A stretch of 64,000 bases of DNA. Source: Escherichia coli (GTDB lineage Bacteria; Pseudomonadota; Gammaproteobacteria; Enterobacterales; Enterobacteriaceae). The DNA is taken from assembly GCF_003334385.1 (NCBI RefSeq), contig NZ_QOWN01000001.1; one strand, 5' to 3'. The position numbers were made by a program. Below are positions 9,001 to 15,000 of the stretch, piece after piece; positions within the stretch are counted from its first letter, which is position 1; each line of letters starts with the position of its first letter.

Positions 9001-12000
9001 AAATGCTAAAAAACAGGGGTACTCAGACGAATCAGTCTTGCCACTTTTTCTACATATTTCCTACATTCAGGAAAAAGGCTGGAAATGGTATCAATGTTAT
9101 GGCTGTGGATATATCGTAAAACAAGCATCTGTTTTCTTTCCGACATACCAAGCATGTATCATTGATGCTGAACAAGAATGTATTGGTATACTAGTTCAAC
9201 TGTCTGAAAAAACTTGAGCCACCCCTTGAAATGCCAAACAGTGGATGTATCTTAAGTTAACGTTACCCGCTGACGTCGATATTCTCGCGGAGAGCGATAA
9301 CCCAACGCACTGTGCGGATGGTTTTCATTGTAATGCTCGATCGCTACTGCAAGGTTATGCACTGCCGTTCTTACATTCGGTTTCGGCATGAACGCGATGT
9401 AGTCTTCCTTCATCGTTTTCACGAACCGTCTGCCATTCCATTACTCTGAGGACTGCTGACTGCCGTCGTGCAGGGCTCCAGATTCAGCTCTCTGGCGAAC
9501 TGCCGTGTTTCATGCGCTCTGTACGCTGAACCGTTATCTGTCAGCCACTGGATGGGCTCTTCCGGCACTTTATCGCCAAAGCCTTTTTCTATCGCTCCTG
9601 ACATCACATCCTGTACTGTCGCTTTATCGTAACCTCCCGTACTGGCTGCCCAGTCGATGGCTTCACGATCACAACAGTCCAGGGCGAACGTAACCCGGAC
9701 TTTTTCGCCATCATCACAACCGAACTCGAAGCCATCAGAACACCAACGCTGGTCGCTTTCCTTCACCGATATTCGGCCTTTATGTTCCCGCTGCAGCCGT
9801 GATGGTTTGTCATGTAACAACAACAGGCTGTTTTCGCTCATTATTCGGTAAACGCGCTTTGCATTCACGAACGGCAAGCCTTCATTTCGGGACTGCCGTC
9901 TGAGTATCGCCCAGACACGGCGATACCCATATGCTGGCATATCGCCAATGATATCCAGGATGCGCGATAAGACTTCTGCATCCGCAGCCTCATCGCGTCT
10001 CTGACGCCGTTTATCTGGCTTGTTATCAGATGCCTTCATCCGTAATGTTAGCTGCGCACGCGACACGCCCAGAACACGGCTTACCGGAGCTATTCCTTGT
10101 CCGAAGGTAACAAGGGCACATGCGCTATCCATTTTCGCGATTGTGCGTACTCCACCGCTTCTTTGAGGATCTCAACTTCCATTGTTTTCTTGCCCAGTAA
10201 ACGCTGAAGCTGATTAATCTGCTTTATCGCAGCGGCCAGTTCAGAAGCAGGAACAACGTCTTCACCGGCAGCAACAGCAGTGAGGCTTCCTTCCAGGTAT
10301 TGTTTTTTCCACTTAAACAACAGGCTGGGCTGAATGCCATGCAAACGTGCCACGTGGGACACAGTCATGCCAGGCTCCATAGTCTGTTGAATAATTGCGA
10401 TTTTTTTTCTGAGGTGTTTTACGTTTACGCACCTCTTTTCCTAACAAAACGCCAGCAATCTCAAAATTAGAACTAGTGTTAGACATATATCCAAGCCTAC
10501 CTCTTATTTTAAGATACATCTACTGTCTGGTATTTCAGGGGGCCAGTCTAGTATTTCACTGTGTTGTATTGAATCTGTATTTTCTTCGCACCTCGTTTAT
10601 CTCATCTCTATAGACAATGCCATCAGATAACTCATACCCTTCAGCACAACGCTGTGTGTCGTTAATAATCCGTCGTATCCATTCTGTTACAGCATGCCTG
10701 ATAAATACCATCTGTAAGTTATTACCGTTTTAGATCTGATTATGAGCGAAAGCATTAATTCGCTCACAGAGCTTAAAACATCATTAACTTTCAGGAGTCA
10801 TCAACATGCCTAAATCTTACACACCAAACTGGTTTTTTACCGCTTTACTTGACAATCACATCAATCAAATGATGGCACGCTATTCCTGCCTGCGGGCCTT
10901 ACGCATGGATTTCTTCTACAGGAAAGATACGCCTGATTTCTTACAACCTGATCATCGCTGGCTTGAATTGCAGTTGCGTATGCTGCTGGAGCAGGTAGAA
11001 CAATTTGAAAATATCGTTGGTTTCTTCTGGGTGATTGAATGGACGGCTGATCATGGTTTTCATGCGCATGTCGTTTTCTGGATCGATCGTCAGAGGGTTA
11101 AAAAAATATATCCCTTTGCGGAGCGGATAGCGGAATGCTGGCAGGCAATTACGTATAACTGTGGTTCGGCGCACCGCTGTACATATCAGCCGCATTATGC
11201 ATACAACATCAACATTCCTGTGCGCCACAACGATCCTGAAAGCATCGATAATATTCGCGGTGCCCTGCATTATCTGGCGAAAGAAGAACAAAAAGACGGG
11301 CTGTGTGCCTACGGCTGCAATGAAGTTCCTGAACGTCCTGCTGCAGGGCGTCCTCGTAAGCCTCACTTCTGAAGCTTAAGGCCTGAGCCTCCGCTCCTGG
11401 AAACACTCCGTCGGTAAAAACTTACCGCATTGATTAATGATGTGAACTGAAGTCAACGGAGATCATTCATCCTGAACCTGAATCCGGTGTTCTGTTCCTT
11501 GCCGGTTACCGGATCTTCCCGTTCTGCTTCAGTTCTTCACTTATTCCATCAATCTCATCCGCAAGCCATAACACGTCAGCTCATTCACGGGCAGGACGCA
11601 CTGTGGGCTGCGCATAACGGAACATATCTTATGAATGCTATTCCTTATTTCGACTATAGCCTGGCACCCTTCTGGCCGTCTTATCAGAACAAAATCATCG
11701 GTATCCTTGAGCGTGCGCTGCGTGAGCAGTCCGGCTCCCGGATACGACGGATCCTGCTTCGTCTGCCATGTGAATATGACCGTACCTTCAGCAGCAGAAA
11801 GATCTGGTTCGGTATGGACTTTATCGAAACCGTCAGTGCGCTGATGAATGTAACCTCCGGACGTGATCTCTGCTGGCTCCTGACTCGTCATCCTGAAAAG
11901 CCGGAATACCACGTGGTGCTGTGCGTCAGACAGGAGTATTTCGATGGCTCTGAACTGGATCGGCTGATTCTTGATGCCTGGAGCAACGTACTGGGCTTCA

Positions 12001-15000
12001 TGTCACCGGGTGAAGCGGCACCGTACCAGAAGCAGATCACCCGGGATGTGGTGCTGGACAGTCGTTCACCGGACTGCGAAGAGATATTTCAAGCGCTGAT
12101 CTGGGCGTTCAGTGATTTCGCCCGCGATCGTCGTGGTGTACGCGATCCGGAAGCCCGTTACCTTGCCGGTAATCCCTGGTATCCGGTAGCAGGCCAGCTC
12201 TGAAAACTCCGTTCAGTAGATTCACCCGCATTTGCCCAACCTTCATAAATCTCACAGAGGACATTCTGACCATGTTGACCACAACAAGCCACGACAGCGT
12301 ATTGCTGCGTGCCGACGATCCCCTGATCGACATGAACTACATCACCAGTTTCACTGGCATGACAGATAAATGGTTTTACAAGCTGATCAGTGAAGGTCAT
12401 TTCCCTAAACCCATCAAACTGGGGCGCAGCAGCCGCTGGTACAAAAGTGAGGTGGAGCAGTGGATGCAGCAACGAATCGAGGAATCCCGGGGGGCAGCAG
12501 CATGAAACGTGTTGTAATGCCAGTACGCTGGCAATGTGCAAAATGCCAGCGCTGGTATTGTGGAACCCGGCCCTGCCCCTGGTGCTGGCGACATTTACGT
12601 TCATCTTCTTGCAGACATTCTCCAGTCAGCCTGCAGGTTATAGCTATTCCTGACTGATTCGTCATTCTATTCTTATTGATTATAACTGGCATTACACCGG
12701 TGCCGGAGTGTTTTTCTGTAAGTCTGCGCCGGTTCAGTAAATTAGAAAAGAAACATCTGTCAACGCCAAGATTGTTAGTCGTTACGCCTTATATCACTGG
12801 CGCTGACATTTATCTGTTTCAGTGAAGCATGCCCACAGATTGAGTTATTAAGTTGTGGAAGAACAGCTCTGCCCCGCCTGCTTCTCTCCTTTCAGAAGCC
12901 AGTATGTTGCCATGCCCCGTCTTAATGGTGAGCGCTGAACCATACCTGCTTTTTCCAGTAATAACAGGTAATAGCGGGCCTGGTAATCCGTTACCGCCAG
13001 CGCCTCCGCAATTTCTGCCGTTTTCCCTCCATCATGCCTGTTCAGAAATTCCAGTATTTCATTCTTCATATATTCACTCATCTCACTGTAACAAAGTTTC
13101 TTCGAATAATAAAAATCATGCTTTCTGTTATCAACGGAAAGGTATTTTTATTCTCTGTGTTTGCTGTGTTTGCTTTATTTGTGCAATTTAGTGAATTTGC
13201 TTTTTATTGGCTTTATTTGATATGTATCACATTTTGCGTTTTATTTTTCTGTGAAAAGAAAGTCCGTAAAAATGCATTTAGACGATCTTTTATGCTGTAA
13301 ATTCAATTTACTATGATGTTTTTATCTGAGTGCATTCTTATTATTAGTGTTTTATTCTAGTTTAATTTTGTTTTGTGGGTTAAAAGATCGTTTAAATCAA
13401 CATTTACAACATAAAAAACTAAATTTAACTTATTGCATGAAGAGTATTTCCGGGCCGGAAGCATATATCCAGGGGCCCGACAGAAGGGGGAAACATGGCG
13501 CATCATGAAGTCATCAGCCGGTCAGGAAATGCGTTTTTGCTGAATATACGCGAGAGCGTACTGTTGCCCGGCTCTATGTCTGAAATGCATTTTTTTTTAC
13601 TGATAGGTATTTCTTCTATTCACAGTGACAGGGTCATTCTGGCTATGAAGGACTATCTGGTAGGTGGGCACTCCCGTAAGGAGGTCTGCGAGAAATACCA
13701 GATGAATAATGGGTATTTCAGTACAACACTGGGGAGACTTATACGGCTGAATGCTCTTGCAGCAAGGCTTGCACCTTATTATACAGATGAGTCGTCGGCA
13801 TTTGACTAAATTATGGCATTCCGGAGTTTCTGGAAGATAAAAAAAGAAGCCCTTATCAGAAAGCAGACAGGTTATATCAGTATTTTGTCGATAAATAACC
13901 TGCCCTGAAAATACGAGAATATTATTTGTATTGATCTGGTTATTAAAGGTAATCGGGTCATTTTAAATTGCCAGATATCTCTGGTGTGTTTAGTAATGAA
14001 AAAGAGGTTGTTATTTATGATTAAGTCGGTTATTGCCGGTGCGGTAGCTATGGCAGTGGTGTCTTTTGGTGTAAATGCTGCTCCAACTATTCCACAGGGC
14101 CAGGGAGAAGTAACTTTCAAAGGAACTGTTGTTGACGCTCCATGTGGTATTGAAACGCAGTCTGCAAAACAGGAAATTGATTTTGGCCAGATCTCTAAAT
14201 CCTTCCTGCAGGAGGGCGGGGAAAGCCAGCCAAAAGATCTGAATATTAAGCTTGTAAATTGCGATATCACAAATTTTAAAAAAGTAACTGGTGGTGGGGC
14301 AGCCAAAGCAGGAAGGGTGGCTCTGACTTTTTCCGGCGTATCCAGTGGGAACAATAAAGATATGCTGCAAACAGTTGGCGCAACTAATACAGCTATCGTT
14401 GTTGTCGCTCCGGATGGCGAACGTGTGAAGTTTGATGGGGCGACCACTACCGGTCCTTCAAATCTGGTTGATGGTGATAACACGATTCATTTTACTGCTG
14501 CGGTCAGAAAGGATGATAGTGGCAAGGATGTAGCTGAAGGTGCCTTCTCAGCAGTTGCGAATTTCAACCTGACTTATCAGTAACAGTAATACGATAATCT
14601 GGTCCGGTAAACAGCGGAAATATTCCGCTGTTTATTTCTCAGGGTATTTATCATGAGACTGCGATTCTCTGTTCCACTTTTCTTTTTTTGCTGTGTGTTT
14701 GTTCATGGTGTTTTTGCCGGTCCGTTTCCTCCGCCCGGCATGTCCCTTCCTGAATACTGGGGAGAAGAACACGTATGGTGGGACGGCAGGGCTGCTTTTC
14801 ATGGTGAGGTTGTCAGACCTGCCTGTACTCTGGCGATGGAAGACGCCTGGCAGATTATCGATATGGGGGAAACCCCGGTTCGGGATTTACAGAATGGTTT
14901 CTCCGGACCTGAAAGAAAATTCAGCCTCCGGCTCAGGAACTGTGAATTTAACAGTCAGGGTGGGAACCTTTTCTCTGATTCCCGGATAAGGGTGACTTTC

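What the first reader, a model, noticed from the sequence alone, without database searches (positions are those of the whole stretch)
10806..12505. Remnant of a second integrative element (HUH YagK-like gene, hypothetical gene, AlpA-like regulator) inside the island
These three plus-strand genes resemble the CP4-type prophage module (AlpA with YagK/YfjJ-family proteins), yet they are more than 14 kb from the only integrase in the window and flanked by the IS2-like element and the pap operon. This supports stepwise, mosaic assembly of the island.
Basis: partly seen in the sequence, partly recalled or inferred. Interest (0 to 1): 0.35.

Follow-up and report, generated by a model that had tools for sequence, protein, structure and literature searches.

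The report
Island backbone genes: HUH nuclease pair plus AlpA
These three genes are real and intact, but they are an ordinary, widely shared core module of this family of E. coli tRNA-linked genomic islands (a likely DNA-nicking enzyme, a disabled relative of it, and an AlpA-type regulator), not the leftover of a second inserted element.

Summary
Window 10806-12505 carries three intact plus-strand genes:
- ORF1 (188 aa) is an HUH "Gp2-type" protein.
- ORF2 (true start 11631, 190 aa) was called hypothetical.
- ORF3 (77 aa) is an AlpA-family protein.

The trio occurs as a unit in 1,539 of 5,426 complete E. coli genomes. In simpler islands it lies collinear with the GTPase-to-CbtA backbone and a canonical YagK/YfjJ gene, with one integrase per island. 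In this island, IS-borne cargo (ireA, a nuclease/PAPS-reductase block, pgt) was inserted at one point in that backbone. So assembly was mosaic, but I found no sign of a second element: no extra integrase, no internal att copy, no duplicated backbone.

New details:
- ORF2 is a divergent YagK/YfjJ homolog that lacks the first HUH histidine and the catalytic tyrosine.
- A small Cys-rich ORF overlaps the AlpA stop codon.
- The 136 bp upstream of ORF1, containing a perfect hairpin, is the most conserved part of the module.

All three genes are under purifying selection.

My proposed mechanism is inferred and untested. AlpA would control excision or transcription, and the HUH enzyme would nick the excised island for replication or mobilization.

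This is ordinary, already annotated biology.

The parts
10550..10805 (+). Retained 3' end of the conserved ORF-free spacer/leader upstream of ORF1. The IS2-like element has cut away the rest, about 1 kb in intact copies. The sub-region 10670-10805 is ultra-conserved.
   Evidence: Homology to WB61 starts at window 10550 (alignment). Mean pairwise divergence is 0.8% for 10670-10805, against 11.5% for 10551-10669 and 3.3% for ORF1.
10743..10766 (+). Perfect 8-bp inverted repeat with an 8-nt loop (TGAGCGAA-AGCATTAA-TTCGCTCA), 40 nt upstream of the ORF1 ATG. It is a candidate cis site: an operator, an HUH nick hairpin or a 5'UTR structure.
   Evidence: Read directly from the sequence. The ssDNA fold of 10700-10806 is -16.8 kcal/mol, z = -5.3. 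It is invariant in 5 E. coli copies. The sequence is not conserved in other genera.
10806..11372 (+). ORF1, 188 aa: a Gp2-type single-tyrosine HUH nuclease (RefSeq WP_001126811, 'inovirus-type Gp2 protein'), with a C-terminal GRPR motif.
11373..11630 (+). Intergenic region between ORF1 and ORF2 (258 bp), non-coding.
   Evidence: Divergence 7.3% with indels. Homologs start at the Met equivalent to 11631. No Rfam match.
11631..12203 (+). ORF2, 190 aa: a divergent YagK/YfjJ-family paralog that lacks the catalytic residues, so it is predicted to be a non-catalytic HUH-like protein.
   Evidence: HHalign to YagK/YfjJ 97.3%, E 1.7e-11. The first HUH His is replaced by E92 and the YfjJ Tyr187 position by D162. 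Distant relatives P0197 and P0203 carry Pfam YagK_YfjJ_C and sit in the same context. dN/dS 0.19. AF2 model pLDDT 77.
12272..12505 (+). ORF3, 77 aa: an AlpA-family winged-helix regulator/excisionase-like protein (WP_000958492).
   Evidence: Pfam Phage_AlpA 2.5e-10 and HTH_17 2e-5. PHROG excisionase/regulator families. PDB AlpA 8c3t 1e-3 and TorI 0.015. dN/dS 0.07.
12502..12657 (+). Small Cys-rich ORF (51 aa) whose ATG overlaps the AlpA stop (ATGA). It is a candidate zinc-ribbon mini-protein.
   Evidence: The core MKRVVMPVRWQCAKCQRWYCG..PCPWCWRH is conserved in 6 of 7 copies. The motif W-x-C-x2-C-x3-Y-x-G-x3-C-P-x-C matches, in spacing, the C-terminal ribbon of the Zn_ribbon_11/DUF7828 proteins next to AlpA in L012 and L017. 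The Pfam hit is itself not significant (0.45). One RefSeq genome annotates it.
12686..12715 (+). Terminator-like hairpin plus T-run that closes the module. Conserved homology ends at 12741.
   Evidence: Terminator scan. Right homology limit.
9252..10486 (-). Left flank: a frameshifted IS2-like (IS3-family) element that truncates the module's upstream spacer.
   Evidence: ORFs. RefSeq annotation of the identical DNA in UPEC132.
12848..13081 (-). Right flank: papI, the start of the pap operon cargo. It is convergent with the module.
26544..27728 (-). The island's single P4-type tyrosine integrase, next to tRNA-Sec (28028-28122, minus strand).
   Evidence: It is 40% identical to K-12 IntA.

Best explanation
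**What it is (well supported).** The trio belongs to a roughly 2.2-kb conserved operon-like module at window 10550-12741. The module consists of a leader, ORF1, ORF2, AlpA, a small Zn-ribbon ORF and a terminator. It is part of the standard backbone of the CP4-like family of enterobacterial tRNA-associated islands, the ones that carry the GTPase-DUF932-antirestriction-RadC-CbeA/CbtA block. In this selC island the module has been separated from the rest of its own backbone (a canonical 246-aa YagK/YfjJ gene and the GTPase-to-CbtA block, which lie left of the window in near-identical genomes). The separation came from IS-mediated insertion of cargo at a single point. The pap operon sits on the module's other side.

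**How it likely works (inferred).**
- AlpA is the island's winged-helix regulator. It would either activate integrase and module transcription or act as a recombination directionality factor for excision.
- ORF1 is an active single-tyrosine HUH nuclease. It would nick a specific site on the excised circle, possibly the ultra-conserved hairpin leader. That nick would start rolling-circle replication or allow mobilization by a helper's transfer machinery.
- ORF2 is a catalytically dead paralog, presumably a DNA-binding or regulatory partner.
For: **Shown**
- The trio is conserved as a unit in 1,539 of 5,426 genomes.
- 410 genomes keep it within about 10 kb of the GTPase backbone.
- WB61, 97-3250 and EC6 have the contiguous order GTPase / Gp2-243 / spacer / Gp2-188 / ORF2 / AlpA, with cargo only beyond it.
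- BLAST maps WB61 5912-7747 and 8746-10928 onto the UPEC132 island and onto window 10550-12741. Br54, UPEC132 and CFT073 share the breakpoint at 7747.
- ORF1 homologs in Enterobacter, Klebsiella, Serratia, a Salmonella-like contig and metagenome contigs have AlpA within about 2.5 kb in 7 of 8 contexts. In four of them the pair lies divergent from the same GTPase/DUF932 backbone.
- Pseudomonas tmRNA islands have the integrase at one end and alpA plus a Gp2-like gene at the other, and those authors regard them as core functions (bioRxiv 10.1101/2024.08.29.610337).
- The catalytic HUH/Y motifs of ORF1 are invariant, and its model matches HUH Rep structures best.
- ORF2 is homologous to YagK/YfjJ but has lost the motifs.
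- All three genes are intact, with dN/dS of 0.07-0.19.
- The leader is ultra-conserved.

**From established knowledge**
- CP4-57 AlpA activates intA and excision.
- HUH enzymes use a His-hydrophobic-His metal site and a tyrosine to nick ssDNA for rolling-circle replication or conjugative transfer.
Against: - No experiment exists for any member of the ORF1 or ORF2 families. Literature searches found only annotation mentions.
- The identical AlpA protein is paired with integrases only 41% identical, at selC here and at pheU in CFT073. That argues against a strictly cognate RDF-integrase pair.
- The hairpin is not conserved in sequence outside E. coli, and no nick site is known.
- The roughly 1 kb of conserved spacer lost to the IS might contain the real cis site. 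If so, this copy would be crippled.
- No sigma-70-like promoter was found upstream of ORF1.
- No direct repeat of the selC end was found at the far end of the island, so this island may no longer excise.
- The backbone to the left of the window is inferred from genomes that are 99-100% identical over the shared part, not from the window itself.
Confidence: 0.6

Rival explanations
1. First reader's view. The trio is the decayed remnant of a second, independently integrated CP4-type element that landed inside, or in tandem with, the selC island.
For: - The trio lies 14 kb from the only integrase and between an IS and foreign cargo.
- The trio, ORF2 and Gp2-246 proteins are identical to those in the CFT073 pheU island, while the integrases are only 41% identical. 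The body and the integrase end of this island therefore have different histories.
- In some islands AlpA-Gp2 is integrase-proximal, as in CP4-57.
Against: - There is no second integrase or fragment of one, no internal selC-like att copy, and only one set of backbone genes in the 51-kb island.
- The trio is collinear with the single backbone in islands that have one integrase.
- The genes are intact and under purifying selection, not decaying.
Confidence: 0.12
2. The module is a regulatory and replication cassette of a phage satellite (P4-like or PICI-like). A helper phage would trigger AlpA, and ORF1 would replicate the satellite.
For: - AlpA is a core regulator of P4-like satellites and of Gram-negative PICIs (established knowledge; PMC11773190 listed).
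- ORF3 hits PHROG excisionase/regulator families and ORF1 hits phrog_7120.
- Related Pseudomonas islands are moved by a jumbo phage.
Against: - No capsid-redirecting, packaging, primase or other satellite hallmark genes lie in the module or the island.
- Only 2 of 50,697 phage records carry an ORF1 homolog.
- The islands are 20-50+ kb and dominated by cargo.
Confidence: 0.1
3. The module does not serve mobility. AlpA would act as a transcription activator or antiterminator for adjacent cargo (defence systems, fimbriae), and the HUH-like pair would be accessory DNA-binding proteins.
For: - The module always sits at the border between the backbone and highly variable cargo, often defence systems.
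- ORF3 gives a weak PADLOC hit to a candidate defence-associated family (PDC-M06B, 4.8e-5).
- P. aeruginosa AlpA is a known antiterminator (established knowledge).
Against: - A terminator-like hairpin closes the module.
- The downstream cargo differs completely between copies, and here it is convergent (papI).
- ORF1 keeps a full catalytic HUH/Y set, which is not needed for a purely regulatory role.
Confidence: 0.1
4. The module is a remnant of an integrated filamentous (inovirus) prophage, as the RefSeq name 'inovirus-type Gp2' suggests.
For: Only the Pfam and RefSeq family names.
Against: - No inovirus structural or assembly genes lie nearby.
- No sequenced inovirus has a detectable homolog by tblastn.
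- The gene is embedded in island backbones across genera.
Confidence: 0.02

Closest known systems
CP4-57 cryptic prophage module of E. coli K-12 (intA - yfjH - alpA - yfjI - yfjJ ... yfjP GTPase ... ypjF toxin)
   Same: It has the same gene families: a P4-type integrase (40% identity), an AlpA-family regulator (25% identity, E 1e-4), a YagK/YfjJ-superfamily HUH protein, and a GTPase/DUF932/antirestriction/RadC/toxin-antitoxin backbone.
   Different: - Here the order is Gp2, ORF2, AlpA, rather than alpA, yfjI, yfjJ.
- The module is not integrase-proximal, and it is divergent from the GTPase block rather than co-oriented with it.
- There is no YfjI-type gene in the window.
- ORF1 is not significantly similar to YfjJ or YagK by BLAST (E 0.3 or worse). 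The true YfjJ/YagK orthologue is the 246-aa gene elsewhere in the island.
PAI-CFT073-pheU (pap2 island) of UPEC CFT073
   Same: It carries the same IS3 - trio - papI junction at 99.9% identity and the same cargo block (nuclease/PAPS reductase, PerC, pgtABCP, pap). Its ORF2, AlpA and Gp2-246 proteins are identical.
   Different: It sits at a different tRNA site (pheU) with an integrase only 41% identical. The block is inverted between IS3 copies relative to ireA/Gp2-246. ORF1 is frameshifted in CFT073 but intact here.
Pseudomonas tmRNA-linked genomic islands transduced by a jumbo phage (bioRxiv 10.1101/2024.08.29.610337)
   Same: The integrase is at one end and alpA with an adjacent inovirus Gp2-like gene at the other. 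RadC and HTH proteins count as core genes, and defence cargo lies between.
   Different: They are in a different genus and at a different integration site. I made no sequence-level comparison. The function of the Gp2-like gene is also untested there.
HUH Rep nucleases with solved structures (SIRV1 ORF119, AAV Rep, parvovirus NS1 nuclease domains)
   Different: There is no detectable sequence similarity to any solved structure. ORF1 has no helicase domain, and it has a C-terminal GRPR tail. No origin or nick site is known.

Membership tests
HUH endonuclease superfamily (ORF1) | HUH motif: two histidines separated by a hydrophobic residue, on a beta strand | tested here: met
   H86-A-H88 is invariant in 27 homologs of 39-94% identity. 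It aligns to the HYH motif of YagK/YfjJ.
HUH endonuclease superfamily (ORF1) | Catalytic tyrosine motif (YxxK) on a C-terminal helix | tested here: met
   Y156 and K159 are invariant. They align to Y187/K190 of YfjJ and lie in helix 144-158 of the model.
HUH endonuclease superfamily (ORF1) | HUH nuclease fold | tested here: met
HUH endonuclease superfamily (ORF1) | Metal-dependent site-specific ssDNA nicking with a covalent 5'-phosphotyrosine intermediate | not testable with these tools
   This needs biochemistry.
HUH endonuclease superfamily (ORF2) | HUH motif and catalytic tyrosine | tested here: not met
   The first His position is E92 (Cys or Phe in distant relatives). The position aligned to the YfjJ Tyr187 is the invariant D162. 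There is no conserved Tyr in the C-terminal helix.
YagK/YfjJ family (Pfam PF11726), ORF2 | Significant sequence or profile similarity to YagK/YfjJ | tested here: met
   ORF2 alone gives only E 0.078. The family profile against a YagK/YfjJ alignment gives HHalign 97.3%, E 1.7e-11 over 146 columns. The relatives P0197 and P0203 carry confident precomputed PF11726 hits.
YagK/YfjJ family (Pfam PF11726), ORF1 | Significant sequence or profile similarity to YagK/YfjJ | tested here: inconclusive
   BLASTP to K-12 YagK and YfjJ is not significant (E 0.3-3). The Pfam domain E-value is 6.6e-4, and the REP_ORF2-G2P hit is better at 3e-5. HHalign gives 95%, E 2.6e-8. ORF1 is a remote superfamily relative, not an orthologue.
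AlpA family (Pfam PF05930), ORF3 | Match to the AlpA winged-helix domain | tested here: met
   Phage_AlpA 2.5e-10. Solved AlpA-family protein 8c3t at E 1e-3 and TorI at 0.015. The NCBIfam excisionase domain TIGR01764 is below its cut-off (20.7 against 28.8 bits).
AlpA family (Pfam PF05930), ORF3 | Activates the integrase or excision (CP4-57 AlpA), or acts as an RDF or antiterminator | not testable with these tools
   The only indirect evidence is that the identical protein is paired with integrases 41% identical.
CP4-57-type int-alpA-yfjI-yfjJ module | Integrase-proximal position and the gene order alpA, yfjI (DUF3987), yfjJ | tested here: not met
   The order here is Gp2, ORF2, AlpA. It lies 14 kb from the integrase and there is no YfjI gene in the window. 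One related island (EC6) has a YfjI-family gene upstream of the trio.
Independent (second) integrative element | Its own integrase or a remnant of one, its own att repeats, or a duplicated backbone | tested here: not met
   The island has one integrase and one backbone set. There is no second copy of the selC 3' end in the window or in the rest of the island at up to 3 mismatches. The trio is collinear with single-integrase islands.
Inovirus (filamentous) prophage | Filamentous-phage structural and assembly genes, and homologs in sequenced inoviruses | tested here: not met
   None are annotated in the island. Only 2 of 50,697 phage records match ORF1, and both are an 82-kb Acinetobacter contig.
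Zn_ribbon_11 (PF11682), small ORF 12502-12657 | Significant profile match | tested here: inconclusive
   The Pfam E-value is 0.45. However, the Cys/Tyr/Gly/Pro spacing is the same as in the Zn_ribbon_11/DUF7828 proteins next to AlpA in L012 and L017.

The most novel reading that the evidence does not exclude
The module would be a self-contained HUH-based replication or mobilization unit that keeps supposedly non-mobile pathogenicity islands transferable. In this reading:
- ORF1 nicks the ultra-conserved hairpin leader (10743-10766) of the excised island.
- ORF2, a pseudo-enzyme paralog, targets or regulates ORF1.
- AlpA, with its translationally coupled zinc-ribbon partner, switches the system on.
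- The adjacent antirestriction/RadC/DUF932 block acts like a plasmid leading region that enters the recipient first.
Probability: 0.2. Interest if true: 0.6.

Novelty: already known. Interest (0 to 1): 0.28.

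Why it matters
The result corrects how this island should be read. Distance from the integrase does not mark a separate element here. The island is one backbone that has accumulated virulence and fitness cargo (ireA, pgt, pap) through IS activity.

The Gp2-type/AlpA module occurs in over a quarter of complete E. coli genomes and in many Enterobacterales, yet no member has been studied experimentally. If ORF1 is an active nickase, it would give a testable mechanism for how large 'non-conjugative' pathogenicity and defence islands replicate after excision or get mobilized. The disabled paralog ORF2 and the ultra-conserved leader give concrete starting points for those experiments.

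Tried and rejected
- **Rfam.** Scans of window 10300-13000 and of the intact spacer and module in L013 found nothing meaningful.
- **Promoter scan.** It found no plus-strand sigma-70-like site upstream of ORF1.
- **Repeats.** The repeat search gave only short, chance-level repeats.
- **Hairpin across genera.** There is no sequence conservation. Hairpins are present in only 3 of 5 loci and they differ, so this is a lead only.
- **ORF1 against ORF2.** The direct profile comparison is not significant (E 0.035). I therefore do not claim a recent tandem duplication.
- **Candidate ORF2 relatives.** The 176-aa middle gene of the L022 Gp2-hyp-AlpA trio, and the 182-aa gene that follows AlpA in other E. 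coli copies, show no detectable relation to ORF2.
- **Other profile libraries.** NCBIfam and PADLOC gave nothing for ORF1 or ORF2. The PDB sequence search with the ORF1 profile found nothing.
- **ORF2 fold search.** It is not discriminating. HUH Reps appear among many ferredoxin-like hits of similar Z.
- **Small RCR plasmids.** Plasmid hits to ORF1 are mostly large (about 110 kb) Acinetobacter plasmids, not small RCR plasmids, so there is no support for a plasmid Rep role.
- **Literature.** Searches found no functional study of the YagK/YfjJ/Gp2-type family.
- **Not run.** I did not run the costly genome contigs or metagenome scans. The E. coli collection plus eight cross-genus neighbourhoods were enough for the backbone question.

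Full report
**1. The observation**

Window 10806-12505 contains three plus-strand ORFs.
- ORF1 is 10806-11372 (188 aa).
- ORF2 ends at 12203. The mechanical ORF starts at a GTG at 11487. RefSeq, the distant homologs, and the indel-rich and more divergent 11373-11630 stretch all point instead to the ATG at 11631, giving 190 aa.
- ORF3 is 12272-12505 (77 aa).

On the left is a frameshifted IS2-like IS3-family element. On the right is papI and the pap operon. The only integrase is 26544-27728 on the minus strand, beside tRNA-Sec at 28028-28122. It lies 14,039 bp from ORF3.

The same DNA is 100% identical over 10400-12900 in UPEC132 and N50, and 99.9% identical in CFT073. Over the first 24 kb the window is 99.0-99.4% identical to its best matches. 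The window therefore comes from a close relative of these strains, not from one of them.

**2. What the proteins are**

ORF1:
- It hits Pfam REP_ORF2-G2P (3e-5) and YagK_YfjJ_C (7e-4).
- Its family spans Enterobacter, Citrobacter, Salmonella, Klebsiella, Serratia and Xenorhabdus at 39-60% identity.
- Across 27 members, E78, H86, H88 (the HUH motif), Y131, Y156 and K159 (YxxK) and a C-terminal GRPR motif are invariant or nearly so.
- ORF1 is not significantly similar to K-12 YagK or YfjJ by BLAST (E 0.3-3). Profile-profile comparison shows remote homology with both motifs aligned (95%, E 2.6e-8).

ORF2:
- Alone it has no significant Pfam, NCBIfam or PHROG hit.
- An exhaustive HMMER search of 1.84 billion representatives found only 38 hits. 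Nearly all are from E. coli. Two are distant full-length relatives of 32-34% identity.
- Both of those relatives carry confident YagK_YfjJ_C hits and lie beside AlpA and Gp2-type genes in the same kind of island.
- The ORF2 family profile matches a YagK/YfjJ alignment at 97.3% probability (E 1.7e-11).
- In that alignment the first HUH histidine is Glu92 (Cys or Phe in the relatives), and the position of the YfjJ catalytic Tyr187 is an invariant Asp162.
- ORF2 is therefore a YagK/YfjJ-family protein that has lost two of the three hallmark catalytic residues. Its fold search is compatible with an HUH fold but does not discriminate.

ORF3:
- It hits Phage_AlpA at 2.5e-10 and PHROG excisionase/regulator families.
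- It matches the solved AlpA-family protein 8c3t (E 1e-3) and the TorI excisionase (E 0.015).
- It is 25% identical to K-12 AlpA.

**3. Extent of the module**

- Homology to other copies runs from window 10550 to 12741.
- A 51-aa Cys-rich ORF at 12502-12657 starts with an ATG that overlaps the AlpA stop codon. Its core is conserved in 6 of 7 copies. Its Cys/Tyr/Gly/Pro spacing matches the C-terminal zinc ribbon of the Zn_ribbon_11/DUF7828 proteins that neighbour AlpA in other genera. The Pfam hit itself is not significant.
- A terminator-like hairpin follows at 12686-12715.
- Upstream of ORF1, only 255 bp remain of a roughly 1.1-kb AT-rich, ORF-free spacer that intact copies conserve. The IS element removed the rest.
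- Within what remains, the 136 bp directly upstream of ORF1 are the most conserved part of the whole module. Mean pairwise divergence there is 0.8%, against 3.3%, 8.4% and 5.9% for the three genes and 11-26% in the flanks.
- That stretch contains a perfect 8-bp/8-nt-loop hairpin at 10743-10766. The ssDNA fold has z = -5.3.

**4. Context, and the test of the 'second element' idea**

The trio is conserved as a unit in 1,539 of 5,426 complete E. coli genomes, mostly at 90-95% identity. All seven copies I examined are intact, with dN/dS of 0.12, 0.19 and 0.07. They are maintained genes, not decaying remnants.

In UPEC132 the full selC island is about 51 kb. Its order, from the yicL side, is:
- DUF4942 through CbtA/CbeA, RadC, antirestriction, DUF932, HTH and GTPase, all on the minus strand;
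- two hypothetical genes;
- a 246-aa Gp2-family gene, which is the true YagK/YfjJ orthologue (30% identity, E 1e-25);
- ireA;
- IS256 and IS3;
- the nuclease / PAPS reductase / IbrB / PerC block;
- IS1;
- pgtABCP;
- a frameshifted IS3;
- the trio;
- the pap operon;
- tia;
- a phosphoethanolamine transferase;
- a TPR protein;
- the integrase;
- tRNA-Sec.

There is one integrase and one copy of each backbone block.

Simpler islands show the order GTPase / Gp2-243 / spacer or a variable slot / Gp2-188 / ORF2 / AlpA, with cargo only beyond it. These are WB61 at pheV, 97-3250 at the setC side of the selC locus, and EC6 next to ulaD. In all, 410 genomes keep these parts within about 10 kb.

BLAST maps WB61 5912-7747 onto the Gp2-246 region of UPEC132, and WB61 8746-10928 onto window 10550-12741. 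Br54, UPEC132 and CFT073 share the same left breakpoint at 7747. Br54 has only IS2-ireA-IS256-IS3 inserted there. This is a series of cargo accretion at one point in a single backbone.

No second copy of the selC 3' end exists in the window or in the rest of the island.

In CFT073 the same cargo + trio + pap block is bounded by inverted IS3 copies and is flipped relative to ireA/Gp2-246. ORF1 is frameshifted there.

**5. Beyond E. coli**

- ORF1 homologs have an AlpA gene within about 2.5 kb in 7 of 8 independent contexts.
- In four of those contexts (Enterobacter, Klebsiella, L017, L022) the pair is divergent from the same GTPase/DUF932 backbone and is followed by defence cargo.
- In one Salmonella-like contig the pair lies directly beside the integrase, as in CP4-57.
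- A preprint on Pseudomonas tmRNA islands reports the integrase at one end and alpA plus a Gp2-like gene at the other, and treats them as likely core functions.

Distance from the integrase is therefore not evidence for a separate element.

The 'inovirus' label also has no support. Only 2 of 50,697 phage records match ORF1, and both are an 82-kb Acinetobacter contig. Plasmid matches are mostly large Acinetobacter plasmids.

**6. Mechanism**

Shown:
- The module is a conserved backbone unit.
- ORF1 has a complete HUH/Tyr catalytic signature and an HUH-like fold.
- ORF2 is a homolog without that signature.
- ORF3 is an AlpA-family protein.

Inferred from what is established for these families (CP4-57 AlpA activates intA and excision; HUH enzymes nick ssDNA through a tyrosine to start rolling-circle replication or conjugative transfer):
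- AlpA controls excision and/or transcription of the module.
- ORF1 nicks the excised circle for replication or mobilization.
- ORF2 is a non-catalytic partner.

Caveats:
- The identical AlpA protein is found with integrases only 41% identical, at selC here and at pheU in CFT073. That fits a regulator travelling with the backbone better than a strictly cognate RDF.
- No nick site is known, and the hairpin is not conserved across genera.
- No promoter was predicted.
- This copy has lost about 1 kb of upstream spacer.
- No distal att repeat was found, so this island may no longer be mobile.
- No experimental study of the family turned up.

**7. Verdict**

The feature is ordinary and already annotated in thousands of genomes, including CFT073, so interest is low. 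Four details are modestly new:
- ORF2 as a disabled YagK/YfjJ paralog;
- the AlpA-coupled small Cys-rich ORF;
- the ultra-conserved hairpin leader;
- the demonstration that the module is collinear backbone split by cargo.

The backbone to the left of the window is inferred from near-identical genomes, not seen in the window itself.

Noticed in passing
window 10670-10805 (hairpin 10743-10766): This 136-bp non-coding leader upstream of ORF1 is far more conserved among E. coli copies (0.8% divergence) than the genes it precedes. It contains a perfect 8-bp stem / 8-nt loop hairpin. The sequence is not conserved in other genera.
   Followed up: partly
window 12502-12657: A small Cys-rich ORF (51 aa) whose start overlaps the AlpA stop (ATGA). 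Its motif spacing matches the zinc ribbon of the Zn_ribbon_11/DUF7828 proteins that sit next to AlpA in Klebsiella, Serratia and metagenome islands. It is annotated in only one RefSeq genome I saw.
   Followed up: partly
L013 24240-25305; L004 7651-9000 (outside the window): Intact copies have about 1.1 kb of conserved, AT-rich (29-37% GC), ORF-free DNA between the variable slot and ORF1. There was no Rfam match. In the window all but the last 255 bp was removed by the IS2-like element. Its function is unknown; it could be an origin, an oriT or a silenced regulatory region.
   Followed up: partly
L018 (CFT073 pheU island) 4525-32963: The block [nuclease/PAPS reductase - PerC - pgtABCP - IS3fs - trio - pap] is bounded by inverted IS3 copies. 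Relative to UPEC132 and the window it is inverted with respect to ireA and the 246-aa Gp2 gene. ORF1 is frameshifted in CFT073.
   Followed up: partly
window 26544-27728 vs L018 1008-2267: Identical AlpA, ORF2 and 246-aa Gp2 proteins (same RefSeq WP accessions) occur in islands at selC and at pheU whose integrases are only 41% identical. The island body and the integrase end therefore have separate histories.
   Followed up: partly
L006 (UPEC132 42000-56000) and window 28028-28053: No direct-repeat copy of the tRNA-Sec 3' end (24 nt, up to 3 mismatches) was found at the far (yicL) end of the island or inside it. The island may lack an intact distal att site.
   Followed up: partly
window 1-2400 (left edge) and L001 5133-10430: A cargo cassette of an ATP-dependent nuclease, a hypothetical protein, a PAPS reductase, a frameshifted IbrB-like protein, a PerC-family regulator and another hypothetical. 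It resembles ibrAB-type or defence-like cassettes. I did not analyse it.
   Followed up: no
window 12272-12505: ORF3 gives a weak hit (4.8e-5) to PADLOC candidate family PDC-M06B. The module commonly borders defence-system cargo in other genera (type I R-M, Gabija-like, Hachiman, GmrSD).
   Followed up: no
L019 2570-3279; L016 5604-6164; L017 10765-11238: In other genera a UCP030791-family gene follows the module. In one locus it also hits YagK_YfjJ_C and is preceded by a 56-aa Zn_ribbon_11 gene. E. coli copies have a 182-aa hypothetical plus a ProQ/FinO gene after AlpA. In the window that position is occupied by pap.
   Followed up: partly
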